Source: a bacterium (GTDB lineage Bacteria; UBA8248). Taken from it: 64,000 bases of DNA. Shown in pieces: positions 9,529 through 57,478 of this stretch. Both the position numbers and the translations under genes were made by a program. The stretch lies in NCBI GenBank assembly GCA_965221165.1, contig CBDCRP010000002.1, positions 1,120,001 through 1,184,000 of the forward strand. The letters are read 5' to 3'. Below the pieces are notes generated by a model, which saw only the letters and a program-made list of their open reading frames with translations, searched no databases and had not been told where the DNA came from. Position 1 is the first letter of the stretch; each line of letters begins with the position of its first letter.

Positions 9529-9697
9529 ACATTGCTGAATGCTGGCGCGCAGTGGCGGCTCGACGCGAATGCCTCTCTCAACCATGCCGGCACGCGGCGC
9601 GAGCGCGAGGACGGCGAGGAGCACGAGCTCATGTTGCAGGCGATTCTGCGCTGGTAGCGGCCGAGGTTCGCATACCGCTCACGGGTTGCTTCTCCAG

Positions 9698-10366
9698 CCC
9701 GCGCTTGGGCTGCTTCTGGGGCACCTTGAGCCCCTCCTGCCGCCAGATGCGCTCGACCCGCTTGTGGTTCACCCGCCAGCCCTCATGCCTCAGGAGCGCT
9801 GTGACGCGCCGGTACCCATAGCGCCCGTATAGACTGGCCAGCTGGGTGATTCGATCGGTAAGCCTCCTCTCATCATCGCTCAGACACAGAGGGCGCCTTT
9901 GCGTTGAGCGGGGCTGTGCCAGCACCCGGCAGGCCCGCCGCTCAGATACCCGGAACCTCTCGCGTACATGCACCGCCGCCCGCCTTCTCTTTGGCGGGCT
10001 CAGAAGTTTCCCGAGGCGACCTCCTTGAGAATCGCCATGTCCAGGGCCTGGTCAGCTACGTGCTTCTTGAGGCAGCCGTTCTCACGCTCGAGTTCCTTGA
10101 GCCGCTTGGCCTGATCGAGCCTGAGGCCTCCGTACTCCTTCCTCCAGCGATAATAGGTCTGCTCGGATACTTCGATCTGCTTGCGGGCCTCAGGGACGGT
10201 CTGTCCCTGAGAGAGCAGAACCTCGGCTTCTCTCAACTTGCCGATAATCTGCTCAGGCGTATGACGCTTCCTGGACATGAAAAATTCCCCCGGATCGGGC
10301 GGCCCGGCCGAAAGAGTACCGAAAATCCTCTCATTCAGCATGGACCGATGTGAGGGGGGCACATCA
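9698..10366 (-). mobile_element. Truncated IS3-family element (orfA 10000-10278 intact; orfB cut after ...QKQPKRG)
   Basis: Left end TGATGTGCCCCCC at 10366. orfA MSRKRHTPEQII...VASGNF. The orfB start matches the full copy at 20.4-21.7 kb but lacks the DDE domain. Confidence 0.9.
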
Positions 10367-11219
10367 CATGAAAATTGAAGTTGTTGTTGATGAATTCGGA
10401 CCGCAATTCGAAATCTGAAGGCAACAAATTGCCCACAAAAATGGATTTTCCGATGCCACCTGCGCCTTTCAGAATGGGAATGTAATCCATTTTGGTTCCA
10501 GGATTGAACATCCTCTCGATCCCGCCGAGATAGATATATCTCCCCACAGCCCGATTGTATTCGTTATCCTCCACACCGAAGCAATCGAGCAGGCATCTCT
10601 CATGATACTGATCACCAGATTGGCCCATTTCCTCATAAATGGATTTGATAAACTCAGCCACTACGTTCTTTTTATTATCCAGCGCCAAACTTTCCACGGC
10701 ATCACGCATCATCACATTCGAGAATTCCGCCTCGGAAGAGTCTTTCCCACTACCAAATTTGAACTTCTCTGCTATTTCCGTGCGAAGTTGCAAAACATCG
10801 TCATCACCTAGGCGAGATGTCTCTTCATTTCTTTGAATGTAAATGGTGCCTGAAACGACATCTTTGAATAGATGGACCTTGAGTTGTTGCAGAGCATCTT
10901 TCGCGCCCATGATTTTTTTCTTCAGGACTTGATCGTTATCAATCTCTTTGTTCTCTTTGTTCGTGATTTCTTTCTGATATGTTTCCGCATCAATCCAGAT
11001 TTGCCGTAGTTCTTCATCAGAAAAACACTCATACCCATCAAAATTCTCCTGGTTCAATCTGAGAAACGATGCTTTACACTGATTGAAATTCGCAGGTGGA
11101 ATTTTCCCATCCAGATAGCTCATCCAAGCCTCGTTTGAGAAAGCTTCTAGTTCCGTGCGTAACTCGATTTTCTTGAAGTTTGTTTCGGGGTGTGACTTTG
11201 TTTCTGTGTTGTTCGACAT
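10367..11219 (-). pseudogene. VapE/VirE-like (phage/ICE primase-helicase-associated) P-loop protein, truncated by IS3
   Basis: AT-rich ORF with NPGTKMDYIPILKGAGGIGKS (VapE-type Walker A). The frame runs straight into the IS3 end. Confidence 0.7.
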
Positions 11220-11876
11220 GATTCTTCCTCCTTGATTTGGGTTAAAGTGCTCTGATCTCATTGCTATTGGGTTTTTTTGAGATTGGGGAGTGCGCCCACT
11301 CCCCAAAAACCCAAATCAAAGAAGCCAGAACATGGGTATTTATACGGAGACTCTGACTTTTCTTTGAGGAAAATGAAAAATAGTTATAATTTGCCTCTAG
11401 GCGTGCATATTTCGACGCTGAGAGCACATCTCTCCCATAGCCAGTCCGTTAGCATTGTTTCGTTTTTTGATTTACTTGAGCAGCGTTTCGATGAGTAGGT
11501 TCTTACCGAAGCCAAGGAGAGAAAGCGACAATCGTTTCTTCAGATCAACAATTTACACACGCTATAGATGTGCGAAATTCCATACTTCCACGAATCCCTT
11601 CAAAATAAACATATTCTATTGATTTATAAGGGGTTGTATTGTTTTCAGGAAATCAATAAATGTCAGGGAGTATCTACCCCTTGGTCGATTTTATTTTAGT
11701 AAATTGGCAGAAATGACATTTGTAACTCATTTAGTATCAATAAGTTATTATTTGATTTTCACGTTTCGCAACATTTGTTTTAGTTCTGGAATTTCCTCTG
11801 AGAACTTTTTGGTAAGTATCAAATTGGAGAGCAGTTTACCTAGATAGGAACTTACTCCGAAGCGTCAGAGAACTGC

Positions 11877-13269: not shown

Positions 13270-13381
13270 TTCAGAGTATATGGGAAATTTCGGTTGAAGG
13301 GACTTCGGGTGCTCGGGGATGGGGGAGGCCAAAAAGTGGCCTCGCACTTCGGTGTTGTTCCACTTCGTGGAGGAAAATAAA

Positions 13382-14410
13382 ATGAAGAATTGGGCGATCA
13401 GGTACCTTGGCATCGTGATTTGTACGGCAGCGATAGGAACAGCTCCTGCTATTGGTTCGGAGTATCCTCCCGAACTCGTTTCCGCCGCGAAGAAGGAAGG
13501 CAAGCTCGTTATCTACTGCTCTCACCGGCGCAAGATCATGATCCCGGCGAGCAAGGAGTTTGAAAGATTGTTCGGCATCAAGGTGGATCACACGCGGAAG
13601 TCGAGCAAGGGTGTCATCCGGATAGTCGAAGCCGAGCGCATGGCGGGACGGCAAAGGGTCGATATCATTTGCATCGGCGACAGGACGGCGCTGATCCGGT
13701 GGGGGAAAGAGAAGGAAGTGATCCCTTATCAACCGAAAAACAAAAGCATGATGGACCCCATCTTGCGACCGAGGGAAAACTTCATCAACGACAAGTATGT
13801 TCTTAATATGGCCATCACCTACAACACCAAGAAGGTGGCCAAGTCGGAAGTGCCGAAAACTTGGAAAGACCTTTTGGACCCCAAATGGAAGGACCGGATC
13901 GTCATGGCAGCTCCTTCAACGGGATCGGGGCTCGCCACTTTCGGCGTCTTATTAAAGAAATACGGTTGGAATTACTACAAAAAACTCGCGAGGAACCGTC
14001 CTCTGATCGTTATGCAGAGTAAGGCCGGCGAGGTTACGATCATTCGGGGAGAGCGGGATATCGGACCTGGCGTCGTCAGCGTAGCGAATAAGCTCAGGAG
14101 GAAGGGGGAACCCATCGGGATAGCATTAATGGAAGATGTCACGCCGATGTTTCTTGGCGGCTCCGTAATCTGGAAACACGGCGGCCACCCCAACGCGGCA
14201 AAGCTGTGGATGGAATTCGAGCTCAGCAAATTCTATCAGAATCTCATAGTCCAACAAAGTTATTTTGGGGTTCGCAAAGATATGCCTTTGCCCAAAGGGG
14301 CACCGTCCCTCAGCGGGTTGAATCGGGAAACGCCGGATTATAAATGGCTGCTGGCAAACAAGACGAAACTGCTGAAAAAGTTTGATAAAATCATGGGGAA
14401 ACACAAATGA
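13382..14410 (+). CDS. ABC transporter substrate-binding protein (FbpA/AfuA/thiamine-like type 2)
   Basis: Signal peptide; AAKKEGKLVIY, PKTWKDLLDPKWKD, HPNAAKLWMEF. GGAGG RBS. Confidence 0.9.
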   Translation: MKNWAIRYLGIVICTAAIGTAPAIGSEYPPELVSAAKKEGKLVIYCSHRRKIMIPASKEFERLFGIKVDHTRKSSKGVIRIVEAERMAGRQRVDIICIGDRTALIRWGKEKEVIPYQPKNKSMMDPILRPRENFINDKYVLNMAITYNTKKVAKSEVPKTWKDLLDPKWKDRIVMAAPSTGSGLATFGVLLKKYGWNYYKKLARNRPLIVMQSKAGEVTIIRGERDIGPGVVSVANKLRRKGEPIGIALMEDVTPMFLGGSVIWKHGGHPNAAKLWMEFELSKFYQNLIVQQSYFGVRKDMPLPKGAPSLSGLNRETPDYKWLLANKTKLLKKFDKIMGKHK

Positions 14411-14469
14411 GTAAAATGAATAACAGTAGATCCATCTGATATGTCGAACCACTTTGAGGAGGGTTTCAA

Positions 14470-15762
14470 TTGACGCATGAAACTCGCGAGCAGAGGATCC
14501 GCCGTATCAAGGAGAAGTTAAGCCGGGACCGCGGCCGGCCCAACGATGGCGTTCTCTTCGGGGTGGAGGTGGACCCCGATTATTTCGAGGCGTTCTCCCA
14601 GGTGGGCTGGGGCTTCTTCAATCGGGATAAGCCCCGCCATGTGCCCGAAAAGATGCGGGCGATTCTCGCCGCGATCGTCACATGCTCGGTCCTCTGGAAG
14701 AAGGATCCAACGGAACCTGGCGCTACACTCCACTGCGAGAGGGCGCTGGAGCATGGCGCCACCATGGAGGAGATTTTGGAGGCGTTCGAGGTTGCCGGCT
14801 TCGCGGGGGGACACCCGCTTCTCCTGATGGGCCTGAGAGTTCTCAAGGAAATCGCCGGCAAAAAGGGCGGACTGAAAGAGCCCGGGAACGGGTTAGAGAG
14901 TCCACGCGCTGGAGCCTCCTCGGAGACTCGCGAGGAAAGGGTCCGCCGCATTACCGAGAAGATGGATCGGGACCGGGGCTATACCGACGAGGCCCTAGGC
15001 TTTGGCGCCCGACTGGACCCGGATTACTTCGAACCGTACTCCGAGATAGGCTGGGGCTTCTTCAATCCGGATAGACCTCGCCACCTGCCCCAGAAGAATC
15101 GGGAAATCATCGCCGTCGTCGTCGTGGCTCTCAGGGGGAGCGAGGAGGACGCCTACCACCACTGCAAAAGGGCGCTCCAGCATGGCTCCACCATGGAGGA
15201 AGTCCTGGAGGCGTTCGAGGTGAGTGGCCTCCCCGGGGGAACTCCGCACCTACTGAGGGGCCTGAGGATCCTCAAACGGATTGCCGACGAAGGGGGAGGA
15301 CTGAAAGATCCAATTGGTGGGCCTGGGGGCCCTCGCGGAAAAAGAATCCGCCGTATCACCGAGAAGATGAGCCGGGACCAAGGCCGGATCGACGAGGCCC
15401 TAGGCTTTGGCGCCCGACTGGACCCGGATTACTTCGAACCGTACTCCGAGATAGGCTGGGGCTTCTTCAATCCGGACAAGCCCGGCCGCTTCTTGCCCCA
15501 CAAGACGCGCGAAACAATTGCCGCGGCCCTGATGGCCTTCAGGACGGACGAGGAGGGCGTCGCCATCCACTGCAAGAGGGCGCTGGAGTACGGCGCCACC
15601 ATCGAAGAAATGGTAGAGGTGTTCGAAGTGTGTCTCGTCCCCGCGGGAGCCGGGGCCCAATTATTTGGGCTGAGGGCCCTTAAGCGCATCGTTGAGAGGG
15701 CGGGTGCGTCATGTGATGGAGGTTCTTGGATGAGTGAGCTGAAAGAGGAGGTTCTTGAATGA
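14470..15762 (+). CDS. Three-repeat carboxymuconolactone decarboxylase (CMD/AhpD)-family protein
   Basis: Three ~135 aa repeats, each with DPDYFE...GWGFFN...K.R...HC[EK]RAL.[HY]G.T.EE..E.FEV. Confidence 0.8.
   Translation: MTHETREQRIRRIKEKLSRDRGRPNDGVLFGVEVDPDYFEAFSQVGWGFFNRDKPRHVPEKMRAILAAIVTCSVLWKKDPTEPGATLHCERALEHGATMEEILEAFEVAGFAGGHPLLLMGLRVLKEIAGKKGGLKEPGNGLESPRAGASSETREERVRRITEKMDRDRGYTDEALGFGARLDPDYFEPYSEIGWGFFNPDRPRHLPQKNREIIAVVVVALRGSEEDAYHHCKRALQHGSTMEEVLEAFEVSGLPGGTPHLLRGLRILKRIADEGGGLKDPIGGPGGPRGKRIRRITEKMSRDQGRIDEALGFGARLDPDYFEPYSEIGWGFFNPDKPGRFLPHKTRETIAAALMAFRTDEEGVAIHCKRALEYGATIEEMVEVFEVCLVPAGAGAQLFGLRALKRIVERAGASCDGGSWMSELKEEVLE
14985..15476 (+). repeat. 87 bp identical direct repeat inside the CMD gene (14985-15071 and 15390-15476)
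   Basis: CGACGAGGCCCTAGGC...TTCAATCCGGA occurs twice, offset 405 bp. Confidence 0.9.
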
Positions 15763-15775
15763 GCGAGCTGAAAGA
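15718..15775 (+). repeat. 29 bp tandem duplication of RBS plus start codon region
   Basis: GGAGGTTCTTGGATGAGTGAGCTGAAAGA and GGAGGTTCTTGAATGAGCGAGCTGAAAGA, 2 mismatches. Confidence 0.9.
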
Positions 15776-16409
15776 GCCCATCGTGGTGGTGAAGTATTCC
15801 GATTTCACCTGACCCTACTGCTATGTGGCCACCGTCGGTGGAATCCCGATTCTGGAGCAGGATCCGGACGTGGAGGTCGAGTGGGTGAGCTGGGAGGGAA
15901 GGCCGCCCGGCGCCCCGTTCAAGTCCTTCACGCCGGAGGAGCGGCAGGAAGTCTACCAGAAGGTGCACAAGCCCCTAGCGGACAAGTACGGAGTGGATAT
16001 CATCGTCGTCTCAAAGAACAGCTACCGCACCACGAACGCCCACATGACCTCCTTCTACGCCCGGGACATGGGCAAGTTCGTGGGGTTCCGGGACCGGGTG
16101 TACCAGGCCCTCTGGGTGGACAACCTCGACCTGGAGAGCCCCGACGTGCTCGCCCGGCTCGGGGAGGATGTGGGCCTCGACGGGGATGAGATCCGGAAGG
16201 TGATCGAGGAGAAGCGCTACTTCGGCGCGCTCCAGAGCCAGCGCGCCCAGGGAAAGAGTCTCGGGATCTTCGGCATCCCCTGCTTCGTGGTGGAGGGCAA
16301 GATATTCTGGGGAAAAGACGTGATCGACGATCTAAAAGAGGAGGTCGCGCGGCTGAAAAAAGAGAAGCTCGCCGAGCAGGTAAAAGAGGAATGGGGCTGT
16401 CCTAGCTAA
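15759..16409 (+). CDS. DsbA/FrnE-like thioredoxin-fold protein with in-frame TGA; probable selenoprotein (UxxC)
   Basis: ATG 15759 (GGAGG RBS, ATGA overlap with the CMD stop) reads MSELKEPIVVVKYSDFT-TGA(15810-12)-PYCYVATV... in frame with ORF 15825-16409, which carries the cis-Pro loop GIFGIPCFVV..FWG. Confidence 0.85.
15829..15841 (+). promoter_or_regulatory. SECIS-like hairpin downstream of the UGA
   Basis: CCACC-GTC-GGTGG, with loop GU 22-23 nt after the UGA. Confidence 0.55.
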
Positions 16410-17112
16410 GCGGCTTGTTTAGTCTAGGATGGCGTGATGTACGAGAGGAAAAGCCGGCTCAGTGATTGGAAGCGCGGTCGTCTGATTGAGCACTTCGTTG
16501 CCGGTACGACGGCTCGGGCGGCAGCCGAACTGGTTGGCGTCCACCGGAACACGGCGGTCTCATTTTATACTCGGCTTCGCAAGGTGATTGCCGAGGCAAT
16601 GGAGAAAGCCTCGCCTTTTGCCGGAGAGATCGAGGTTGATGAGAGTTATTTTGGCGGCCGCCGCAAAGGCAAGCGGGGTCGAGGCGCTGGCGGAAAAGTC
16701 CCGGTTTTCGGGCTTTTGAAGCGAGGTGGGAAGGTCTACACGGCGATGATCCCCAATGCCCGGACTGCCACGTTGATGCCGATTATGGAGCGTATGATCC
16801 GGCCTGACAGCATCGTCTATACGGACGGTTTTTCGAGCTATGATGCCCTGGACGTTTCGGACTTCCACCATGTTCGGATCAATCACTCGGAGCGGTTCGT
16901 CGATGAGCGGAGCCATATCAACGGGACCGAGAACTTCTGGAACCAGGCGAAGCGGCATTTACGGCGCTTCAATGGCGTCCCGAAACAGAGCTTTCACCTG
17001 TTCCTGAAGGAGTGCGAATGGCGGTTCAACGGAGGTGATCACCGAGAACTGCTTAACCAATTGAAGACATGGATCATTTTGAGACAGAAACGTACTTAGC
17101 TAGGACAGCCCC
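16393..17112 (+). mobile_element. IS1595-family (IS1016-like) element, complete
   Basis: Perfect 18 bp terminal inverted repeats GGGGCTGTCCTAGCTAAG / CTTAGCTAGGACAGCCCC. Flanking (A)AGAGGAA duplication. Confidence 0.93.
16434..17099 (+). CDS. IS1595-family transposase
   Basis: EVDESYFGG, VYTDG, HINGTENFW, LKECEWRFN motifs. Confidence 0.93.
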   Translation: MMYERKSRLSDWKRGRLIEHFVAGTTARAAAELVGVHRNTAVSFYTRLRKVIAEAMEKASPFAGEIEVDESYFGGRRKGKRGRGAGGKVPVFGLLKRGGKVYTAMIPNARTATLMPIMERMIRPDSIVYTDGFSSYDALDVSDFHHVRINHSERFVDERSHINGTENFWNQAKRHLRRFNGVPKQSFHLFLKECEWRFNGGDHRELLNQLKTWIILRQKRT

Positions 17113-17235
17113 AAGAGGAAAGCTAAGCGCAACTTCGTGCTTAAATGGACAGAGAGATCTATTCGTTAAAGCCGCGTTAGAGCAGACACAATGAGGGGAG
17201 AAATGAGCTAGTACAAAAGCGAAATTCGAGGCGGC

Positions 17236-17481
17236 ATGCGCATCGACTGGGACGTTCCGCTCGAAATTGACGATGACGTAGTTCTGCGTGCCGACGTCTT
17301 TCGGCCCGTCGAGGAGAGGAATATTCACAAAGACAGAGGCTTCGTCTACGATGTTTTGGGTTTCGGCGCCCAGCTCGACTCCGACTCTTTCGAAGTCTAC
17401 TCCCAGATGCACTACGGCTTTTTCAAAGAAGAACCTCGCAACCTCGATCCCAAGACCCGCGAGCTGATCGAGAATCAATAG
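17236..17481 (+). pseudogene. Chimeric remnant: CocE/NonD hydrolase N-terminus fused to a CMD-repeat fragment
   Basis: MRIDWDVPLEIDDDVVLRADVFRP (CocE-like start) followed by DRGFVYDVLGFGAQLDSDSFEVYSQMHYGFF...LDPKTRELI, which resembles the repeats in 14470-15762. Confidence 0.6.
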
Positions 17482-17498
17482 AAATTTAAGGAAATGGT

Positions 17499-19235
17499 AT
17501 GGCGGTAGCAACGTCAAGTCGCGGTTCTCTCTGGTTGGGCCTCGTGGGGGCAGTGCGCGGCTGGCGCCATGAAGCCCTTCGCTCGCTTATTTTTCTCGCC
17601 ACCGCCATTATCCTCGGATTTTTTGTCCTCTACCCTCTTGGAATTTTGTTCAAGCGAAGCCTGTACGACTACGACGTACAAGTGTGGACCCTGAACAACT
17701 ACAGGACCTTTTTCTCTGATCCGGAACTTCTCGATGCTTTCTGGACCACGATCAAGCTTGCAATCGGGACATCCATATTTTCCCTCGTTGTAGCGCTTCC
17801 GATGGCGTGGGGAGTTTCCCGGACGGACATGCCTTTCCGGGGATTCATCCGCTCCATGGTGGTGCTCACCTTCGCCACCCCGAGCTTCCTGGGGGCGATT
17901 GGATGGATTGTCCTGCTCGGTCCCCGGGCGGGCATATTGAACAAGGCATTCATGTGGATTTTCTCGACCGACACACCGCTGTTCAACATCTTCAGTTTCG
18001 CCGGGATGACCTTCGTAATGGGGTTGTTCGTCTATCCTTTCCTTTTCTTCTCGGTCGTCTCGGCGCTCGACAACATGGACCCGAGCTACGAGCAGTCCGC
18101 CCGGATCCTGGGTTCCAACAACTTCCGGGTGATGCGGACCGTGACCCTTCCCATTGTCACCCCGGCTATCCTGTCAGGGCTCATACTCGTAATTTTGGAG
18201 AGTTTTGTCGTTTTCGGAGCGCCGGCCATTGTGGGAAACCCTGTCCATATCCAGACCCTATCGACCCAGGTCTATACCCTGTTTTCGAACGATCCGCCCC
18301 AATTCCACATGGCCGCGACGGCAGCGACGCCGATTGTCATCGTGACCGCAATCTTGCTGGTCCTCCAGCGCTTTTATCTGGGGCGGAAGCAATACGTCAC
18401 CATCACCGGCAAATCTCCTCAGCCCCAATTGGTGGATATCGGCCAGTGGAAATATGCTCTCGGGGCATATTCGTTCGGCATCGTCTTCGTGAGCATCATT
18501 CTCCCGATGCTGGCGCTTTTCGAGTCCTCCATCCTGCGCATCTGGGGCGCTCCGCTTTCATTTTCCAATCTCACTTTCGAGAACTACATCAACCTGTTCA
18601 CCACCTCGGACGTCGTGGTGCGCGCGTTCACGAACAGTTTCAAGCTCGCTGTCGGCGCCGCCTTTGTCTGTATCGGGTTTACCTTTGTCATGGCGTGGAT
18701 CGTCGAGCGAACGAATGTGCCCGGAAAGGAGGGCCTCGCGCTGCTTTCGATGATCGGAATGGCGTTTCCCGGGGTCGCCCTCGGGGTGGCGCTCGTGCTC
18801 GCGTTCGCGGGCGGCCCGCTCCCGCTCTACGGCACCCTTTGGCTGTTCCTCATCGGCTACTTCGTCAAGGGAACGCCCATCGCCTTCATGTTCGCCCGGG
18901 CCTCCCTGAAGCAGATTCACGAGGAGCTTGAGCAGAGCTCGCGCGTCCTCGGGGCGCACTGGGCCAAGACGATGAAGGACATCACCCTTCCTCTCATGAA
19001 GAAGGCGTTGCTCTCCGTCGGAACGATCATTTTCTGCCTGAAATTCCGCGAAATGGCGACTTCCATCATGCTCTACACGGGCGGGCTCGAGGTGATCTCG
19101 ATCCTCATCTTCGAATACATCGAAGAGGCGGAGATGGGAACCCTGGGCGCCCTGACGTTCCTCGTATTTTGCGTTAATCTGACTCTTATCGGGCTTTCCC
19201 GCAGAATCGTGGGAAAGGGCGCGTTCGAGATGTGA
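17499..19235 (+). CDS. ABC transporter permease (FbpB-like, two TM domains)
   Basis: Two EAA-like loops (YEQSARILG, LEQSSRVLGA); 578 aa, hydrophobic. Confidence 0.92.
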   Translation: MAVATSSRGSLWLGLVGAVRGWRHEALRSLIFLATAIILGFFVLYPLGILFKRSLYDYDVQVWTLNNYRTFFSDPELLDAFWTTIKLAIGTSIFSLVVALPMAWGVSRTDMPFRGFIRSMVVLTFATPSFLGAIGWIVLLGPRAGILNKAFMWIFSTDTPLFNIFSFAGMTFVMGLFVYPFLFFSVVSALDNMDPSYEQSARILGSNNFRVMRTVTLPIVTPAILSGLILVILESFVVFGAPAIVGNPVHIQTLSTQVYTLFSNDPPQFHMAATAATPIVIVTAILLVLQRFYLGRKQYVTITGKSPQPQLVDIGQWKYALGAYSFGIVFVSIILPMLALFESSILRIWGAPLSFSNLTFENYINLFTTSDVVVRAFTNSFKLAVGAAFVCIGFTFVMAWIVERTNVPGKEGLALLSMIGMAFPGVALGVALVLAFAGGPLPLYGTLWLFLIGYFVKGTPIAFMFARASLKQIHEELEQSSRVLGAHWAKTMKDITLPLMKKALLSVGTIIFCLKFREMATSIMLYTGGLEVISILIFEYIEEAEMGTLGALTFLVFCVNLTLIGLSRRIVGKGAFEM

Positions 19236-19247
19236 GGCGGGAAACCG

Positions 19248-20333
19248 ATGCCGGATCTATCCATTAACGGCCTGACGAAGGCCTTCGGCGAGACCATCGC
19301 CGTCAATGACCTTTCGCTCGAATTCAAAGAGGGCGAATCGGTGGTGCTGCTCGGCCCGAGTGGGTGCGGAAAGACCACGCTCCTCAAGCTGATCGCGGGT
19401 TTCCTCCAGCCAGGCGCGGGCGAGATCGCCATTGGCGGCCGGGTCATCTCGACCCGCCACGAGATGCTTCCCCCGGACCACAGGAAAATGTCGATGGTGT
19501 TCCAGTCCTACGCCATCTGGCCGCACAAGTCGGTGTTCCAGAACGTGGCCTACGGGCTCGAAGTGCGGAAGATTAAAAAGGCCGAGATCGAAAGGAAAGT
19601 GATGAACGCCCTTTCCCTCGTCCAACTCGACGGCCTCGAGGGCCGCTACTCCACCGAGCTCTCGGGCGGACAGCAGCAGCGCGTGGCCCTGGCGCGAGCG
19701 ATCGTGGTCGAACCCTCCCTTCTTCTGCTGGACGAGCCTCTCTCGAACCTCGACGCCAACCTCAGGGTTGAGATGCGCGGGGAGCTGGCCGACCTCCACG
19801 ACCGGCTGGGCATCACGTTCATCTACGTCACCCACGATCAGGCCGAGGCGATGGTCCTGGGGGATCGGGTCGTTTTGATGAATCAGGGAGTCATGGTCCA
19901 GCAGGGCCCGCCCGAGGAGATCTACGAGACCCCAAAGACCCGTTTCGCGGCGAATTTCATAGGGACCTCGAACATTTTCACCGGGTCGGTGGCCAGCGGG
20001 GCCGGTGCCAACGGCGCGATCCGGGTGGACACGAAGTTCGGGCCGGTCGCCGTGGCGCTGGGCGCCAGGCAGGCCCCCCCCACGGGGGAGGAGGCGCACT
20101 TCTGCATCCGGTCCGAACTCGTTCAGATTCATCCGGGCGCGCCTTCTCCCGAGTCCAACCGGTATACGGCACGGATCCTCAAGCGGCAGTACTACGGCAA
20201 GCACGTTCAGTACGTCATGGATCTCGCGGGCGAGGAGCTTCAGGTGGAGTCTTTATCGGACATGAACGTCTCGGCGGGATCGGAAGTGACTATCGAATTA
20301 CCTCCGGAGCATTGTGTGTTCCTGGAGGAGTAA
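19248..20333 (+). CDS. ABC transporter ATP-binding protein (FbpC/PotA-like)
   Basis: [27 protein letters not shown], and a C-terminal TOBE-like region. Confidence 0.93.
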
Positions 20334-20441: not shown

Positions 20442-21714
20442 TGACCTGCCCCCGATAGTTGTACCACTCCCTATGAGAGTCCTGGAACCATGGCCGGAGG
20501 GCGAAGCGGAGCGAAGCCCGGAGGCCATGGTTCATTCGTTTCAGGTGCCGGGGGCCGATAGCCCAGTGAACTGTGCGGCCTGATTCTGTTGTACACATGC
20601 CTCCAGCGCTCCACCAATACTTTTGCTTCATATAGCGTATCGAATCTCTCCAGATTCAGAAGTTCATCCCGCATCTTCCCGTTAAAAGATTCGACATATC
20701 CATTCTCCCAGGGGCTTCCAGGCTCGATGAAGAGCGTCTTCACGCCCAGGCGGGAGAGCCACTCTCTCACGCGTTTCGACGTAAACTCAGGGCCGTTGTC
20801 CGAACGAATGTGCTCGGGGAGCCCCCGCTTTACAAACAACTCGGTCAGCCGGTCTACTACATCCTCTGACTTGAGCTTTCTGCCCACATCAATCGATAAA
20901 CACTCACGCGTGAACTCATCCACCACCACGAGCATCCGAAGAGGGCGCCCATCGCGGGTTCTGTCGGCACAGAAGTCATACGCCCATACATGATTCGGGT
21001 GCTCTGGCCGCCTTCTCACGCAGGAGCCATCATTCAACCACAATCGCCCGCGCTTGGGCTGCTTCTGGGGCACCTTGAGCCCCTCCTGCCGCCAGATGCG
21101 CTCGACTCCTTTGTAGTTCACCCGCCAGCCGTCCAGCCACAACAGCCTAGTCACCCGGCGATACCCATAGCGCCCATACAGGCTCGCCAGCTCCACCACA
21201 CGGGCGGTGAGCCTCTCCTCATCGTCCCTGCAACGGGGCTGGTAGCGCTGTGTCGAGCGAGCTTGCCTCACGACACGGCAGGCATGCCGCTCGGACACGC
21301 GAAAGCGCTCATATACACGCTCCACAGCCCGCCTCCTCTTGGGCGGGCTCAGAAGTTTCCCGAGGCGACCTCCTTGAGAATGGCATTGTCCAGTGCCTGG
21401 TCAGCCACGAGCTTCTTGAGGCGGCCGTTCTCGCGCTCGAGTTCCTTGAGGCGCTTGGCTTGATCGAGGCGAAGCCCCCCGTACTCTTTCCTCCAGCGGT
21501 AATACGTCTGCTCGGAAACTTCGATCTTCTTGCAGGCTTCAGGGACACTCCGCCCTTGGGAAAGCAGGATCTCAGCTTCTCTCAGCTTGCCGATAATCTG
21601 CTCTGCGGTGTGGCGCTTCTTGCTCATGTAAATCCCCCCGATACGGGCGATCATACCGAAAGAGTACCGAAAATCCTCTCATTCAGCATGGACCGGTTTG
21701 AGGGGGGCAGATCA
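20442..21714 (-). mobile_element. IS3-family element, complete (orfA 21349-21627, orfB 20471-21325)
   Basis: Ends TGATCTGCCCCCC / TGACCTGCCCCC. orfB has the rve DDE motifs (WAYDF, SDNGPEF, ENGYVESFNG). A G-GGA-AAC slippery motif lies at the orfA end. No target duplication visible. Confidence 0.93.
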
Positions 21715-21808
21715 GTATTGTATTCAGCGGTCGACCCGGTAAATCAAGATTGATTTCAGAATTTAAGACACAAGCCGTTCGGTTGTAAAGCGTATAATCC
21801 TGAGAGAA

Positions 21809-22027
21809 GACTGGACCGAGCGCTATCGCACCACCCCCGTGCTCATTGAGACCTTCGTCGAGACCCCGCGCTACACCGTCGCCGTCTACAGGGCATCGGG
21901 CTGGAGCCACGTCGGTACGACCCAGGGACGCGGACGCTACGACAGGCGCAAACGCTACGACAAGCCCAAGAAGGACATCTGGCTGCAGCCGCTGCGGAGA
22001 AACTGGAAGCATATCCTCAATCGCTGA
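21809..22027 (+). pseudogene. C-terminal fragment of a DUF4338 (DruA-like, IS-associated) protein
   Basis: DWTERY..PVLIETFVE...YRASGW..VGTTQGRGRYD...KKDIWLQPL pattern; no 5' part. Confidence 0.65.
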
Positions 22028-22534
22028 AATACCTGCCATCACCCCGCGACTGAATGTTTACCCCGACAAGCGCGGACATGTCGTGCCTGGATATTGATCA
22101 AATCCGGTTGCAAAACGATTACGCTACCTGGCAAGACATAATCAGGCGGGTTGCGGTGAGCACTGATAAAGAATTGAAAAATAAATAGATAAACGATATT
22201 TGAGAGCGTGGAAATTCCCTGGAACTGCACAAGAACGACGCAGGTCGTGAAGCCGCACGTCATGAAGGCCCGCCCGCGCCCGGATGCGTTGCCAGGGATG
22301 GTCGATCTGGCGCATGTGCGTCCCCGGCTTCCTGCCGGGTATGACCCATGAATTGACCTACCACCGAAGAACGGAGAAAGAATTTTTCGATACCCTTGAT
22401 CGCATTCTGATGTTCGCCCTTTGCCACGACGAATTCCCCCGCTCGATATTTTGGGTATAAATCAAGCGATCAAAATCGATAAGAACCGCTTGCGGTTTCG
22501 CGGCGGAGTTCGCAAACAAAGCTGGCGTGCGCCG

Positions 22535-22864
22535 TCAGCCTGGATTCGCCATCACCGCATCTTTACCTTGCCGCCCGTCAACATGGAGCGTGACCCGCAG
22601 ACCGCCGTCGAGGGCAGCAAGCATCTTCATCAGCCGGTCCAGCGTAAACCGCCCCAGGTCCGCGTTGCGAATGCGCGAGAAATCGGCCGCGGCGAAGCGG
22701 GTCAGGGCGGCGGCCTTTCTCACCGAAAGCCCGCGGTCGTCCAGCACCGCGATGATCCGGGCCGCGAGAATCGCCTTGGCCTGTTTCAGGTCCGCAAGCG
22801 GATCGTCGAGGTCGCGAAACACATTACCGCTTCCCTCGATTAGTTCGAAATCGCTTTCACTCAT
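22535..22864 (-). CDS. XRE-family HTH antitoxin (HigA-like)
   Basis: GSGNVFRDL start and HTH (LSVRKAA...ADFSRIRNA...FTLDRL). ATGA overlap with the toxin gene. Confidence 0.88.
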   Translation of the reverse strand: MSESDFELIEGSGNVFRDLDDPLADLKQAKAILAARIIAVLDDRGLSVRKAAALTRFAAADFSRIRNADLGRFTLDRLMKMLAALDGGLRVTLHVDGRQGKDAVMANPG

Positions 22865-23211
22865 GGCAACAACTCCCTTTTCAGTCGCCCCAGCCGGTCC
22901 CTCACCAGATCGATCTCGGCCTTCGGAGTCTTAATCCCCGTTTTCGATTTCTTCCGGAACGCGTGGATCACCCATAGCCGTCCCGCAACTTCCGTCACGT
23001 AGACGACCCGCCAAGCATCGGTCCGGTACCGCACGGCGATTTCCATGACACCCGGCCCGAGACCCTTCAGCGGTTTCACGATGTCCGCTTTGCCGCCTTC
23101 AGCCGCAATCGTCAGCGCCGTGTTGACGCGATCCCGAACGGTCACGGGGAACGTCTCGAAAACCTTTCGCGCAGCCCTGACCCAGCCGATCGGCCTCGTA
23201 TTGTGGTTCAT
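22861..23211 (-). CDS. RelE/HigB-like (Gp49-type) toxin
   Basis: VKPLKGLGPGVMEI...WRVVY...VIHAFRKKSKTGIKTPKAEIDL; toxin-first order. Confidence 0.88.
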   Translation of the reverse strand: MNHNTRPIGWVRAARKVFETFPVTVRDRVNTALTIAAEGGKADIVKPLKGLGPGVMEIAVRYRTDAWRVVYVTEVAGRLWVIHAFRKKSKTGIKTPKAEIDLVRDRLGRLKRELLP

Positions 23212-23580
23212 TCCGGATGTTGTCATTATTGACTACACATGTCAAGCAAGCTAGGCGAGGTGACGCGGGATAGCGGATTCCTACCCCGGACACGGCTGCC
23301 GGGCCGCGCGCAAAACCCGACGGTGCACACTTCCGGCACCGACCCTCGCGGCACGCGACACCTCATTTCCGGTACCCCGACAGGAAATCGGCTGCAATAC
23401 TGTCGCCGAACCGTTCCGCCGACTCCCGCACCGAATCCTGCGCTAGGTGCGCATGCATCGCGGTCGTTTCTACCTGCGTGTGACCGAACAGCCGGCCGAG
23501 CATCATCGGATGGCTTTCGGCCTGCGCCAGCGTCCCTCGACGCGCAGCCGTGGCTTAAATTGCGTTCGCATTACCCTTTT

Positions 23581-24700
23581 TCATATCACAGCGGTTTCGG
23601 CGGTAGCGTCCACGTTCATCAAGGCATCGATCCTGTCGGCGATGCGCTGTGAGGGTTCGCGGAGCTGCTCCACGGTCCAGTCGGCGGCGTAGCCTTCGGT
23701 GATGTCATCATCACGGGCATGGTTGACCAGCCGTTTGGTCAGCGAGCGCGGCAGCATCAGTTCGCGCTCCGCCACCGTGATGAAGACATTGCGCAGGCCG
23801 TGGAACCAGAACCGGGTCCCGGCGGCGCGCCCGATATCGACGTAATACTGGTGAATGCCGCCGAGATGGCCCGTCGAACTCATGGAGGACGGGAACACCC
23901 AGCCGTCCGGGTCCTCTCCGTCCGCCCGGCGGCGCTCGAAGATCGCCGCCAGCTGCCGGGTCATGGGAAGCTCCAGCGGTTCCCCGGTCTTGGTCTCATC
24001 GACCCGCAGGATACGCCGCTCCAGTTCCAGGCGCTCCCATCTGAGGGAGACGATCTCGCCCAGGCGCATGCCGGTGTAGACCCCGACCAGGAAGATGTCG
24101 CGGTGCGCGGGCGGAAGCCCGACGGCATCCACACCGGCTCGCCAGCGCGGCAGCACCTCGGAAGGGGCGGAGATGCGCCGCCGCCGCTTGGGGTGGTAGC
24201 GCCCGCCCCCGGCGAGCCAGAGTTCCACCGGGTTGAGCAAGCCCTCGTGATCGACGCAGGACCGGCGGTAGATGGAACGCAGCAGTGAAATCGTCTGATT
24301 GGCGCCCGCCCAGCCGTGCTCCTCGGTGATGAGGTTGAACCGCCCCTCGATGTCCCTCCGGGTAATGGCGTCGAGCGGACGGTTGTGCCAGCCGTGGAGA
24401 TTGATCCGCATGTTCTGGTGGTAGCGCTCCACCGTCCTTGCCTTGCGGTTGGGGTTGGCGGCCATGTAGTCATCGAACGCTTCTCGGAGGGTCGGCATTC
24501 TCCGCGCTTCTACGCGTTCTGAGGCGGGGTCGTCCCCTCCGGCGACGCGGCCGAGCAGTTCCTGGGCCATGCGCCGCGCCTTGTCGGGGGTTATGCGTCC
24601 GTAGCGCCCGAGGGTGACGCGCTTGTTGGGCACCTTGCGCCCGCCGTCTCCGGCGCGGTAGTTGACGACGAAGGTCCTGGTGCCCGAAGGCTGGACGCGA
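23581..24700 (-). pseudogene. Tyrosine integrase with arm-DNA-binding domain, 5' end apparently lost
   Basis: Catalytic TGMRLGEI, HGLR, NH..., Y. The upstream frame gives RVQPSGTRTFVVNYR (arm domain), preceded a few codons earlier by a stop with no start codon. Confidence 0.75.
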
Positions 24701-45449: not shown

Positions 45450-45659
45450 CGCATGCTCATCTAGCCGGAGCAAAGGGAAGATCACGCGTGAATCCTCGCC
45501 GGAGGAACGGAGGGCGAACGAGGAAAGCAGAAAAATCCATCCGGGGATCGGCTGAAATGCATATTGCACTGATGAACGAATTTGATAAGATGTCAAGGAA
45601 ATGGGAAGAAGTCGTAAGGAGCCGTGAAACAAATATTTGCAGGTACGCATTTAAGAGGG

Positions 45660-45923
45660 TATCTTAACGGCTTTTCGAAAGAATGCCCGGAAAGAAGGGC
45701 TTTCGTCGCCCGAGACCGTGCGTTCGGTCTTTCGCACCATAGGTCATGCGTTATGTATGACAACCGCTGTTTTTGCCCTGGGTTTCATGGCTTTCGCCGC
45801 ATGGGATTGACAAATAACAGGGCGCTCGGCCTCCTGTTCGGGATAACGATTGTTATCGCGCTCCTGGCCGATTTTCTGCTTCTGCCGACCCTGCTGATGG
45901 CCATCGACCGGAGGGAACCATGA
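45660..45923 (+). pseudogene. 3' remnant of a third MMPL paralog
   Basis: Frameshifted ETVRSVFRTIGHAL...ALGLLFGITIVIALLADFLLLPTLLMAIDRREP, overlapping the next ATG. Confidence 0.75.
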
Positions 45924-56568: not shown

Positions 56569-57138
56569 ATGGTGGAAAGTCCAAATTACCCCTGGCATGA
56601 GAGCACCGTGCCTGGCGAGAGACCGATCGATAAACCCGAGCTTCCGAAAGACGGTTATGAAATCACCATGCTCGCAAAGACGGAGACGATGGACGATGGA
56701 CAACTGAAAATCGGGCGATTCCGGCATTTTGAAGTTTTTAGCGACGAACCGCCCCGCATCGGAGGAGAGGACAGGTATCCGCAACCTCTCACATACATCG
56801 CCATGGGGGTTGGTTTCTGACTGTTGACCCAGCTTGGGCGGTACGCCCATATGACGAAAACTACTTTCGAGAAAGCCACCTGCCTCGTCGAATTCGATTA
56901 TTTTCTGAAAGGCTCCGTTCTCAGGGGCGACGTAAATTCAGGGTGCAGAAGGGTGCGTACACATTTCAAGGTGGAATCGAGCGAACCAAAAGAACAAATC
57001 CTGCATATCATCCAATTGGCGAAACAAGGCTGCTACGCCGAGCAAATGGTTCAAACGGCGGTTCCGCTCACGAGCACTGTTGAACTAAACGGAAAAAATA
57101 TCGAATTGAAGGGGATTACAAATTCAGACAACCGCTAA
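56569..57138 (+). CDS. OsmC/Ohr-family peroxiredoxin-like protein with in-frame TGA; probable selenoprotein
   Basis: SDEPPRIGGEDRYPQPLTYIAMGVGF-TGA(56818-20)-LLTQLGRYA...AKQGCYAEQ. The two track ORFs are in one frame, separated only by the TGA at the first catalytic Cys position. Confidence 0.88.
56835..56849 (+). promoter_or_regulatory. SECIS-like hairpin downstream of the UGA
   Basis: TGGGCG-GTA-CGCCCA, with loop GU 21-22 nt after the UGA. Confidence 0.65.
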
Positions 57139-57209: not shown

Positions 57210-57285
<76 letters not shown>

Positions 57286-57478
57286 AGTATGTGGAACAAT
57301 CCTCAAACAACCAAGGATTGTTCCTTATCGGCCCATTTCCCTGAAAGGCAAGTATTTCCATGCCTTTACCGGAAAGACAGGGATTCTAAAACGCTCTATC
57401 TCGGGCGTCAACATTGAAACGCATTGCGCTCTCGATATCCGGCTTGATGTTGCTGAATCCCCCAATTATTGTAAGAGA

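What the first reader, a model, noticed from the sequence alone, without database searches (positions are those of the whole stretch)
15759..16409. Hidden selenoprotein 1: DsbA/FrnE-like with UPYC active site
Seen: the ORF caller starts downstream of the active site. Extending upstream gives an RBS, an ATG and SDFT-TGA-PYCY, matching the family's D-x-x-C-P-[WYF]-C-Y motif. A CCACC-GTC-GGTGG hairpin follows. Established: bacterial Sec insertion uses a stem-loop just 3' of the UGA (E. coli fdhF has GU in the loop about 20 nt downstream), and UxxC thioredoxin-fold selenoproteins are known. Inference: UGA = Sec. No signal peptide is visible, so it is probably cytoplasmic.
Basis: partly seen in the sequence, partly recalled or inferred. 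Interest (0 to 1): 0.78.

Follow-up and report, generated by a model that had tools for sequence, protein, structure and literature searches.

The report
Mis-called DsbA/FrnE-like selenoprotein gene
This is a real but ordinary selenoprotein gene: a cytoplasmic DsbA/FrnE-type redox enzyme whose catalytic residue is selenocysteine encoded by an in-frame TGA, so gene callers cut off its active site.

Summary
ATG 15759, TGA 15810-15812 (codon 18) and TAA 16407-16409 frame a 216-residue protein. Its Pfam DSBA domain spans the TGA, giving U-P-Y-C where relatives have C-P-x-C.

The Sec reading is strongly supported:
- All 39 related loci that include the 5' end keep TGA at codon 18, with a start codon and an SD-like site.
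- All 19 distant homologs I aligned have Cys there.
- The 17 codons before the TGA are under purifying selection.
- The hairpin 15 nt downstream is conserved. Synonymous sites are frozen in its stem but free in its GUN loop.
- A second gene in the window (OsmC-related, 56569-57135) has its own TGA/Cys pair and the same kind of hairpin.

Weak points:
- No selA, selB, selD or tRNA-Sec lies in the window or the fetched loci, and the rest of the genome could not be scanned.
- The hairpin shows no covariation and no unusual folding energy.

The closest solved structure is Deinococcus FrnE. DsbA-like UxxC selenoproteins were described in 2005, and this lineage (Nitrospinota/UBA8248) is already listed as selenoprotein-rich. 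It is therefore a new member of a known kind, and mainly an annotation fix. An IS1595-family element has rewritten the last codons.

The parts
15747..15751 (+). Shine-Dalgarno-like GGAGG, 7 nt before the ATG
   Evidence: Read. An SD-like GGAG/GAGG/AGGA lies at -18..-4 in 39 of 39 related loci.
15759..16409 (+). Full coding sequence of the DsbA/FrnE-like selenoprotein: 216 residues with TGA read as Sec, stop TAA 16407-16409
   Evidence: Translation. Pfam DSBA E 8.4e-29 over residues 10-196. AlphaFold2 model with mean pLDDT 96.1. FrnE is the best PDB match.
15810..15812 (+). In-frame TGA, codon 18, read as selenocysteine; first residue of the U-P-Y-C redox motif (15810-15821)
   Evidence: TGA at this codon in 39 of 39 loci. 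Cys at the aligned column in 19 of 19 distant homologs. In the model it sits just before helix 19-33.
15825..15844 (+). SECIS-like hairpin. Core stem CCACC/GGUGG (15829-15833 with 15837-15841) and loop GUC (15834-15836). Possible outer pairs are G15825-U15844 and U15826-A15843. G15828 and A15842 are mismatched in this copy but form G-C in most relatives.
   Evidence: Conserved in all 39 loci. Third-position entropy at stem codons A24, T25, G27 and G28 is 0.00, 0.18, 0.00 and 0.70 bits; loop codon V26 has 1.54; the mean over 49 sites is 1.24.
15825..16409 (+). The truncated ORF (GTG start, 194 aa) that standard gene calling reports; it lacks the active site
   Evidence: 45 of the 46 database homologs with at least 58% identity are truncated in the same way.
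15718..15775 (+). Tandem 29-bp duplication (93% identical copies) of the SD site, the ATG and the first five codons. The first copy forms the C-terminal tail of the upstream gene.
   Evidence: Family D2; sequence.
14470..15762 (+). Upstream gene of three carboxymuconolactone-decarboxylase (CMD/AhpD-like) repeats. Its TGA stop overlaps the selenoprotein ATG (ATGA).
   Evidence: Pfam CMD E 2.4e-31 with 3 stretches. This neighbour is found in none of the other 39 loci.
16392..17113 (+). IS1595-family insertion sequence (transposase ORF 16434-17099) inserted into the last codons of the selenoprotein gene. The final residues WGCPS and the stop are encoded by its left inverted repeat.
   Evidence: Perfect 19-nt inverted repeats at 16392-16410 and 17095-17113. 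AGAGGAA lies on both flanks. Pfam DDE_Tnp_IS1595 E 1e-33.
56569..57135 (+). Second selenoprotein gene in the window: OsmC-related, TGA 56818-56820 (codon 84, motif U-L-L-T), hairpin 56835-56849 (UGGGCG-GUA-CGCCCA)
   Evidence: Pfam OsmC spans the TGA. NCBIfam NF041052 'OsmC-related (seleno)protein' scores 159.9 bits against a cutoff of 95. Cys in 8 of 8 homologs. Hairpin.

Best explanation
The gene at 15759-16409 encodes a cytoplasmic thioredoxin-fold thiol-disulfide oxidoreductase of the DsbA family, FrnE-like. The first, nucleophilic residue of its redox motif is selenocysteine (U18-P-Y-C21).

Shown by comparison:
- The UGA at 15810-15812 is a conserved sense codon.
- It is followed 15 nt later by a conserved GC-rich hairpin with a GUN triloop.

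Inferred from the established bacterial mechanism:
- SelB with GTP and Sec-tRNA(Sec) binds this hairpin on the translating mRNA and delivers Sec to the UGA. Translation therefore continues from the ATG at 15759 and does not terminate.
- Sec18 sits at the N-terminus of helix 1, opposite the cis-proline loop (G-I-P174).
- Sec18 attacks substrate disulfides. Cys21 resolves the mixed selenenylsulfide into an internal Se-S bond.
- A cellular reductase system then re-reduces that bond.

The natural substrate is unknown.
For: 1. Pfam DSBA covers residues 10-196 and so spans the TGA.
2. All 39 related loci that include the 5' end have TGA at codon 18. They come from Nitrospinota, 'Tectomicrobia' and unclassified MAGs, at 58-100% identity to the window protein. 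One is a paralog in the same chromosome (L023). They have 38 ATG and 1 GTG starts, and 39 of 39 have an SD-like site.
3. All 19 distant full-length homologs I aligned (26-33% identity) have Cys at that column, and the second Cys is at least 90% conserved. I chose these 19 from the 150 listed.
4. dN/dS between the window copy and relatives was computable for 8 of 9 comparisons and is 0.13-0.34. The 17 codons before the TGA have dN 0.00-0.08 with dS 0.5-1.6 in the 7 comparisons where that dS is not saturated. They are therefore translated.
5. Among 49 conserved four-fold-degenerate codons in 37 coding sequences, mean third-position entropy is 1.24 bits. The four stem codons score 0.00, 0.18, 0.00 and 0.70, and the loop codon scores 1.54.
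6. Twenty-eight of the 51 longest ORFs in the window end at TGA. Reading through TGA extended a Pfam domain in only 1 of 95 other candidates. TGA is therefore normally a stop here.
7. That one candidate is an OsmC-related gene above the cutoff of a curated (seleno)protein model. It has Cys in 8 of 8 homologs and a 6-bp stem with a GUA loop 14 nt after its UGA.
8. Only 3 of 2025 TGA triplets in the window have such a hairpin.
9. The AlphaFold2 model has pLDDT 96.1 and places residue 18 at the N-cap of helix 19-33. The best PDB matches are FrnE of D. radiodurans: sequence E 6e-14 and TM 0.78-0.79.
10. Published lists include DsbA-like UxxC selenoproteins (PMC1088965; PMC13188914). The isolate of locus L002 is listed with 54 selenoprotein genes (PMC13326102).
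Against: - No tRNA-Sec and no selA, selB or selD was found in the window. No tRNA-Sec was found in the 40 loci.
- The only AIR-synthase-family gene in the window scores below the selD cutoff: 89.5 against 125 bits.
- The rest of the chromosome could not be scanned.
- The hairpin is short, at 5 bp in this copy with a G-A mismatch at its base.
- Its folding energy is no better than shuffled sequence (z = -0.03).
- It shows no compensatory change in the 6-bp core. There is one compensatory cell in the 9-pair version, whose covariation score is reached by 38 of 500 shuffles.
- Rfam gave no match here.
- One relative (L022) has a hard stop at codon 57.
- The window copy has an IS in its last codons and is the non-syntenic second copy in its genome.
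- Nothing here is experimental.
Confidence: 0.9

Rival explanations
1. The TGA is a true stop. The gene is an N-terminally truncated DsbA-fold protein translated from GTG 15825, or a pseudogene, that lacks the redox motif. Public annotations imply this reading.
For: - Table 11 gives ORF 15825-16409.
- 45 of the 46 close database proteins are annotated in this form, some as 'DsbA family protein' or '2-hydroxychromene-2-carboxylate isomerase'.
- No Sec machinery was seen in the sequence available.
Against: - The 17 codons upstream of the TGA, the ATG and the SD-like site are conserved in 39 of 39 loci. Upstream dN is at most 0.08 while dS is 0.5-1.6.
- A nonsense mutation would not be kept at one codon across 58-100% identity.
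- Cys aligns with it in 19 of 19 distant homologs.
- A start at GTG 15825 would delete strand 1 and the start of helix 1 of the fold.
Confidence: 0.03
2. UGA is read as a standard amino acid (Trp, Gly or Cys), either by genome-wide reassignment or by a suppressor tRNA, and not as Sec.
For: One database protein (P0013, 210 aa) is deposited with W at this position.
Against: - 28 of the 51 longest ORFs in the window stop at TGA. By my hand count, so do 20 of the 34 with a Pfam domain.
- Read-through did not extend a domain in 94 of 95 other candidates.
- The aligned residue in homologs is the catalytic Cys, not Trp or Gly.
- A nearly identical N-terminus in locus L039 has TGA at that site, so the W looks like a choice of translation table.
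- A position-specific hairpin is the signature of Sec insertion, not of reassignment.
Confidence: 0.03
3. The family is a selenoprotein family, but the window's copy is a decaying extra paralog. It has a weakened hairpin base, an IS in its 3' end and a duplicated 5' junction, and it is made poorly or not at all. This reading adds to the main explanation and does not replace it.
For: - The G-A mismatch at the base pair is G-C or G-U in 32 of 36 distinct sequences.
- An IS1595-family element replaces the last codons.
- There is a 29-bp tandem duplication at the start.
- The canonical neighbourhood, with MetX upstream, is held by the other copy, L023.
Against: - The reading frame is intact over 216 codons, and all invariant family residues are present.
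- dN/dS against 8 relatives is 0.13-0.34.
- The five core stem pairs and the GU of the loop are intact.
- The IS changes only the extreme C-terminus, beyond the Pfam domain end at residue 196.
- An identical protein recurs in another dataset (P0002).
Confidence: 0.1

Closest known systems
DsbA-like selenoprotein ('DsbA-like protein form 1', PF01323, UxxC), first reported from the Sargasso Sea metagenome in 2005
   Same: Both have a Pfam DSBA domain, Sec as the first residue of a UxxC motif, widespread Cys homologs, and a small stem-loop with a G in the apical loop just after the UGA. The paper evidence comes from passages and tables of PMC1088965 and the table in PMC13188914.
   Different: Orthology with the 2005 sequences was not tested, because none of them was fetched. 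This clade comes from Nitrospinota/UBA8248-type MAGs. It has the fixed downstream peptide A-T-V-G-G that encodes its hairpin. No NCBIfam model names it: the best hit is 34.5 bits against a cutoff of 190.
FrnE of Deinococcus radiodurans (DR_0659; PDB 5cnw, 5co3, 5cp1, 5xwh), a cytoplasmic DsbA-family disulfide reductase/isomerase
   Same: It is the best sequence match (E 6e-14, with its CPWC aligned to UPYC) and the best fold match (TM 0.78-0.79) among solved structures. Neither has a signal peptide. Both have a thioredoxin fold with a helical insert.
   Different: FrnE has Cys, not Sec. It carries a C-terminal CxxxxC tail that is proposed to regenerate the active site (passages of PMC8945050). 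The window protein and its clade lack that tail. Sequence identity is only about 26%.
E. coli fdhF SECIS with SelB (details recalled from memory, not checked in any call)
   Same: Both have a stem-loop directly 3' of the UGA within the coding sequence and a G-U in the apical loop a little over 20 nt from the UGA. Most relatives of the window gene have one bulged nucleotide below the upper stem.
   Different: The hairpin here is much shorter, with a 5-6 bp core and a 3-nt loop. SelB binding has not been tested.
HCCA isomerase and kappa-class glutathione transferases (PF01323 relatives)
   Same: They have the same fold (PDB 2imd, 3fz5, 1r4w; TM 0.72-0.76). One source names the truncated ORF '2-hydroxychromene-2-carboxylate isomerase'.
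   Different: As I recall, those enzymes lack the dithiol CxxC motif. This protein has UxxC and the cis-Pro loop, which points to redox chemistry and not to isomerase or transferase activity.

Membership tests
Bacterial selenoprotein (Sec encoded by UGA) | In-frame TGA aligned with Cys in homologs (Sec/Cys pair) | tested here: met
   Cys in 19 of 19 distant full-length homologs at the column of codon 18. FrnE Cys22 also aligns there.
Bacterial selenoprotein (Sec encoded by UGA) | TGA and its flanking coding sequence conserved among orthologs | tested here: met
   39 of 39 loci have TGA at codon 18. Upstream 17 codons have dN at most 0.08 with dS 0.5-1.6.
Bacterial selenoprotein (Sec encoded by UGA) | SECIS-like stem-loop immediately 3' of the UGA with a G in a small apical loop | tested here: met
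   A 5-6 bp stem with a GUN loop lies 15 nt after the UGA in 39 of 39 loci. Synonymous sites of the stem are frozen. There is no covariation and no energy signal. bSECISearch itself was not run.
Bacterial selenoprotein (Sec encoded by UGA) | selA, selB, selD and tRNA-Sec in the same genome | not testable with these tools
   None was found in the 64-kb window, and no tRNA-Sec in the 40 loci. Indirect support: a second selenoprotein gene in the window, and the L002 isolate is listed among Sec-utilising bacteria.
Bacterial selenoprotein (Sec encoded by UGA) | Selenium in the protein (75Se labelling or mass spectrometry) | not testable with these tools
   This needs an experiment.
DsbA-like selenoprotein form 1 (PF01323, UxxC) | DSBA Pfam domain with Sec as the first residue of UxxC | tested here: met
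   PF01323 scores 101.2 bits against a cutoff of 25.6, and the domain spans the TGA. The motif is U-P-Y-C.
FrnE subfamily of DsbA family (cd03024 / COG2761) | Cytoplasmic (no signal peptide) DsbA-fold protein with a CP(W/F)C-type active site | tested here: inconclusive
   The fold and the best PDB hits are FrnE, and strand 1 starts at residue 8. The motif is UPYC here and UPFC in many relatives, so it has Y and U where FrnE has W/F and C. No CDD or COG assignment and no signal-peptide predictor could be run.
FrnE subfamily of DsbA family (cd03024 / COG2761) | C-terminal CxxxxC regeneration motif (present in many members, not all) | tested here: not met
   The clade ends in a Lys/Glu-rich helix without Cys. 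The single Cys in the window's tail WGCPS is encoded by the IS. According to PMC8945050, some FrnE proteins also lack this motif.
Rcas_1661 family thioredoxin-like (seleno)lipoprotein (NF041057) | Score above the curated cutoff | tested here: not met
   34.5 bits against a cutoff of 190, and the match covers only residues 92-194.

The most novel reading that the evidence does not exclude
In this genome the extra, non-syntenic copy of the FrnE-like selenoprotein may have been recruited into an ABC-transporter operon. The gene order is binding protein, triple-CMD/AhpD-like protein, selenoprotein, CMD fragment, permease and ATPase.

The selenoprotein ATG overlaps the stop of the triple-CMD gene (ATGA), which suggests translational coupling. 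Together the two proteins could form a selenium-dependent redox relay that acts on an imported substrate.

In one relative (L005) the same selenoprotein sits between a MerB-like lyase, a CopZ-N-terminal metallochaperone and a flavoprotein disulfide reductase. This clade may therefore be a mobile Sec redox module that is plugged into different detoxification or uptake systems.
Probability: 0.1. Interest if true: 0.5.

Novelty: new member of a known kind. Interest (0 to 1): 0.3.

Why it matters
The main value is better annotation.

- In the protein collections I searched, 45 of the 46 close relatives are stored as N-terminally truncated 'DsbA family' proteins without their active site, and one is stored with Trp at the Sec position.
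- No NCBIfam model names this clade.
- The clade supplies a clean, very compact SECIS example: a GCCACC-GUN-GGUGGC hairpin that forces the peptide A-T-V-G-G. An unrelated selenoprotein gene in the same window has the same architecture.
- That shared pattern could help in finding the large selenoproteomes reported for this lineage.

The finding does not change what is known about Sec biology.

Tried and rejected
- **Rfam.** A gathering-threshold scan of the whole window found only tRNA-Phe and no SECIS family.
- **ARAGORN.** It found no tRNA-Sec in the window or in the 40 loci.
- **SelD candidate.** The AIR-synthase-family gene at 57281-58489 scores 89.5 bits for selD (cutoff 125) and 107.3 for hypE (cutoff 251.6). 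I rejected it as SelD.
- **Folding energy.** The 71 nt around the hairpin give z = -0.03.
- **Covariation.** It gave nothing: 0 compensatory pairs in the 6-pair core. The 9-pair version has one compensatory cell, and 38 of 500 shuffles reach its score.
- **Shared neighbourhood.** The window's neighbours (CMD x3, binding protein, permease, ATPase, IS) occur in none of the other 39 loci. The neighbour conserved elsewhere is MetX, in 36 of 40 loci, which suggests no functional link.
- **Motif screen.** A screen of 216 TGA read-through candidates for Cys-near-U motifs listed 34. Apart from the finding itself, none was obviously a selenoprotein, and the screen missed the OsmC gene.
- **Pfam read-through scan.** Filtering left 103 of the 216 candidates. 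I dropped 8 by hand: the finding itself and 7 that overlap or concatenate known genes. The scan of the remaining 95 found the OsmC gene.
- **BSepDB supplement.** A search for the isolate handle of the window's genome, for FO_M_Nitrospinota_01 and for 'DsbA' gave 0 occurrences in the one held file. That file has 3,999,962 characters and is probably cut.
- **Not run.** No complex prediction and no protein-atlas search was run.
Full report
**1. What is in the sequence**

On the + strand an SD-like GGAGG (15747-15751) precedes ATG 15759. The frame runs MSELKEPIVVVKYSDFT, then TGA (15810-15812, codon 18), then PYCYVATVGG and on to TAA 16407-16409.

Under table 11 the only ORF listed is 15825-16409, which starts at GTG, codon 23. 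With TGA read as a residue the product has 216 aa. Pfam DSBA (PF01323, E 8.4e-29) matches residues 10-196 to profile positions 2-190 of 191, so the TGA lies inside the domain at the first Cys of the CxxC motif.

My first translation was one base out of frame; one search is the correct one.

**2. Relatives**

A word-indexed search found 59 proteins with E <= 0.001. Forty-six of them have at least 58% identity.
- 45 of the 46 are 173-192 aa long, cover at most 88% of the query, and begin just after the TGA position.
- The exception, P0013 (210 aa), carries W at that position.
- Sources name the truncated forms 'DsbA family protein' (Nitrospinota) or '2-hydroxychromene-2-carboxylate isomerase'.

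A scan of one genome per species returned 40 loci. L001 is the window's own chromosome. L023 is a 69%-identical paralog on the same chromosome.
- In all 39 loci that include the 5' end, codon 18 is TGA. L038 starts at a contig edge and lacks the 5' end.
- The preceding peptide (EPI[VI]V.KYSD[FY]T) is conserved.
- Thirty-eight start with ATG and one with GTG, and 39 of 39 have an SD-like site at -18..-4.
- One copy (L022) has a hard stop at codon 57.

An exhaustive HMMER search gave 3578 proteins with E <= 0.001. From the 150 listed I picked 19 full-length proteins of about 200 aa whose match starts by query residue 13. All 19 have Cys at the column of codon 18, and at least 90% have the second Cys.

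**3. Is the region upstream of the TGA translated?**

Nei-Gojobori estimates between the window copy and nine relatives are as follows:
- The whole-gene dN/dS could be computed for 8 of the 9 and is 0.13-0.34. In the ninth, dS is saturated.
- For codons 1-17, dS is usable in 7 comparisons. There dN is 0.00-0.08 and dS is 0.5-1.6.

Four-fold sites upstream of the TGA (P7, V10, V11, T17) vary freely at the third position (1.0-1.7 bits) while the amino acids stay fixed. This is the pattern expected of coding sequence, not of a leader before a GTG start.

**4. The hairpin**

In all 39 loci the UGA is followed, after 15 nt, by GCCACC-GUN-GGUGGN. These bases are the codons for A-T-V-G-G.

Third-position entropy was measured over 37 coding sequences at 49 conserved four-fold-degenerate codons. 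The three partial loci were left out.

| Codon | Role | Entropy (bits) |
|---|---|---|
| A24 | stem | 0.00 |
| T25 | stem | 0.18 |
| V26 | loop | 1.54 |
| G27 | stem | 0.00 (GGT in 37 of 37) |
| G28 | stem | 0.70 |
| All 49 sites | mean / median | 1.24 / 1.30 |

Only one other site, P174, falls below 0.5 bits. Stem bases are therefore held at the RNA level while the loop's third base is free.

Results that do not support the structure, or that carry no information:
- The core stem never varies, so there are 0 compensatory changes.
- A longer version with one bulged nucleotide keeps pairs 16-35 and 17-34 in 33 of 36 distinct sequences each and has one A-U compensatory cell. Pair 15-36 holds in only 19 of 36. 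Its covariation score is reached by 38 of 500 shuffles.
- The folding energy of the window's segment equals that of shuffles (z = -0.03).
- In the window copy the basal G-C pair is a G-A mismatch, which leaves 5 bp.

[quoted passage not shown] The comparison with E. coli fdhF is from my memory.

**5. Does this organism decode UGA as Sec?**

No tRNA-Sec, selA, selB or selD is in the window, and no tRNA-Sec is in the loci. The AIR-synthase-family gene at 57281-58489 is below the selD cutoff.

There are four lines of indirect evidence:
- **TGA is the usual stop.** Twenty-eight of the 51 longest non-overlapping ORFs end at TGA.
- **Read-through rarely helps.** I listed 216 TGA read-through candidates. 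Filtering left 103 that are not buried in another gene's frame. I dropped 8 by hand and scanned 95 against Pfam. In only one does a domain span the TGA.
- **That one is a second selenoprotein gene.** It lies at 56569-57135. It scores 159.9 bits on NCBIfam NF041052 'OsmC-related (seleno)protein' against a cutoff of 95. Its motif is U-L-L-T, the UxxT listed for OsmC-like selenoproteins. Cys aligns in 8 of 8 homologs. A UGGGCG-GUA-CGCCCA hairpin lies 14 nt after its UGA.
- **The hairpin pattern is rare.** I defined the pattern after seeing both hairpins: at least 5 bp with at least 4 G-C pairs, and a GTN triloop whose G lies 22-27 nt from the T of TGA. It matches 3 of 2025 TGA triplets in the window: these two and one antisense site at 53397.

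[quoted passage not shown] This is the isolate name of locus L002. According to the passages I read, that study searched only species with at least two Sec-pathway genes. A search of its held supplement for the window's isolate handle found nothing, but the file is probably cut.

**6. What the protein is**

An AlphaFold2 model built from a 49-sequence alignment has mean pLDDT 96.1. Its elements, in order:
- strand 8-14;
- residue 18 at the N-cap of helix 19-33;
- strand 38-44;
- a helical insert at 59-167;
- strands 175-178 and 181-184, following the invariant Pro174;
- a C-terminal helix.

This is the DsbA architecture, and the N-terminus has no room for a signal peptide. No signal-peptide predictor was run.

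The best solved relatives are D. radiodurans FrnE, by sequence (E 6e-14, CPWC aligned on UPYC) and by fold (TM 0.78-0.79). HCCA isomerases, SCO1869 and kappa GSTs follow.

Passages of a review (PMC8945050) describe FrnE as a predicted cytoplasmic DsbA-family oxidoreductase. It has a CP(W/F)C motif, and often a C-terminal CxxxxC that helps regenerate the active site. This clade has no such tail.

Mechanistically I infer a Sec18 nucleophile and a Cys21 resolving residue. The reductant and the substrate are unknown.

**7. Local context**

The window copy is unusual. Its ATG overlaps the TGA stop of a gene of three CMD repeats (14470-15762).

A 29-bp tandem duplication (15718-15746 and 15747-15775, 93% identical) repeats the SD site, the ATG and five codons. 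As a result the upstream protein ends with ...WMSELKEEVLE.

An IS1595-family element has inserted into the last codons:
- It has perfect 19-nt inverted repeats at 16392-16410 and 17095-17113, and a transposase ORF at 16434-17099. AGAGGAA lies on both flanks.
- The tail WGCPS and the stop are IS-encoded.
- The sequence beyond the IS suggests that the original end was ...VKEES.
- Only the extreme C-terminus is affected, past the end of the Pfam domain at residue 196.

The gene lies within an ABC-transporter cluster: binding protein 13319-14410, a CMD fragment 17236-17481, permease 17499-19235 and ATPase 19248-20333. None of these neighbours occurs in the other 39 loci.

In 36 of 40 loci, including the paralog L023, the upstream gene is MetX with a NIL domain. 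In L005 the neighbours are a MerB-like lyase, a CopZ-N-terminal metallochaperone and an FAD disulfide oxidoreductase.

**8. Comparison with what is known, and novelty**

'DsbA-like protein' (COG2761, UxxC, nine sequences) was among the new selenoprotein families of the Sargasso Sea study. A 2026 review lists 'DsbA-like protein form 1, PF01323, UxxC'.

The window gene meets those listed features. I did not test orthology to the published sequences. For all papers I saw search listings and passages or tables found by term, not whole texts.

**Verdict.** This is a new, mis-annotated member of a known selenoprotein family in a lineage already known to be rich in selenoproteins, so interest is modest.

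Noticed in passing
window 56569-57135 (+); TGA 56818-56820; hairpin 56835-56849: This is a second hidden selenoprotein gene. It is OsmC-related with a U-L-L-T motif. It scores above the cutoff of NCBIfam NF041052 '(seleno)protein' and has Cys in 8 of 8 homologs. Its 6-bp stem with a GUA loop has the same design as the hairpin of the DsbA-like gene.
   Followed up: yes
window 16392-17113: An IS1595-family element with perfect 19-nt inverted repeats is inserted in the last codons of the selenoprotein gene, so the protein's tail WGCPS and its stop come from the IS. A 100%-identical metagenome protein (P0002) ends ...EEGLS instead, which suggests a slightly different junction elsewhere.
   Followed up: partly
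window 15718-15775: A tandem 29-bp duplication repeats the ribosome-binding site, the ATG and the first five codons. The first copy is read as the C-terminus of the upstream triple-CMD gene. Its origin is unexplained.
   Followed up: partly
window 13319-20333: This is an ABC-transporter cluster. A protein of three CMD/AhpD-like repeats (each with an H-C-x-R-A-L motif), the selenoprotein, the IS and a further CMD fragment (17236-17481) lie between the binding protein and the permease. The arrangement occurs in none of the other 39 loci.
   Followed up: partly
L005 681-4333: In one relative the DsbA-like selenoprotein gene (2126-2743) lies between a MerB-like lyase (below cutoffs), a CopZ-N-terminal metallochaperone (above cutoff) and an FAD-containing pyridine-nucleotide disulfide oxidoreductase. 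The last of these is a plausible reductase partner.
   Followed up: partly
L022 5659-6276: This copy of the selenoprotein gene has a hard stop at codon 57. It is either a pseudogene or an assembly error.
   Followed up: no
L002, upstream of 6001: The reading frame of the selenoprotein gene stays open for 517 codons upstream of its ATG. It may be in frame with the upstream MetX-like gene.
   Followed up: no
proteins P0064, P0067, P0068, P0072, P0073 and others: Many long proteins (about 340-1200 aa) match the C-terminal half of the DsbA domain (query residues about 93-200) in 3-10 tandem stretches. I did not examine this repeat architecture.
   Followed up: no
window 57281-58489 (+), tRNA-Phe 57210-57285 (-): An AIR-synthase-family gene resembles HypE, SelD and ThiL but scores below all their cutoffs. 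Its listed GTG start overlaps the tRNA-Phe gene, and the real start is probably the ATG near 57490.
   Followed up: partly
window 43158-46783 and 49703-52815: A duplicated two-gene module (MMPL-family transporter plus LolA-like lipoprotein-sorting protein) shows identical peptide stretches in both copies.
   Followed up: no
window 9581-11306 and 20471-24633: These stretches are rich in mobile elements. They hold IS3-type transposase pieces (HTH_Tnp_1, HTH_21, rve), a VapE-like domain protein and a phage-type integrase.
   Followed up: no
window 53397 (+): This is the third TGA followed by a GUN-triloop hairpin. It lies antisense to the xanthine-dehydrogenase-like gene at 52920-55220 and is probably a chance match.
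   Followed up: no
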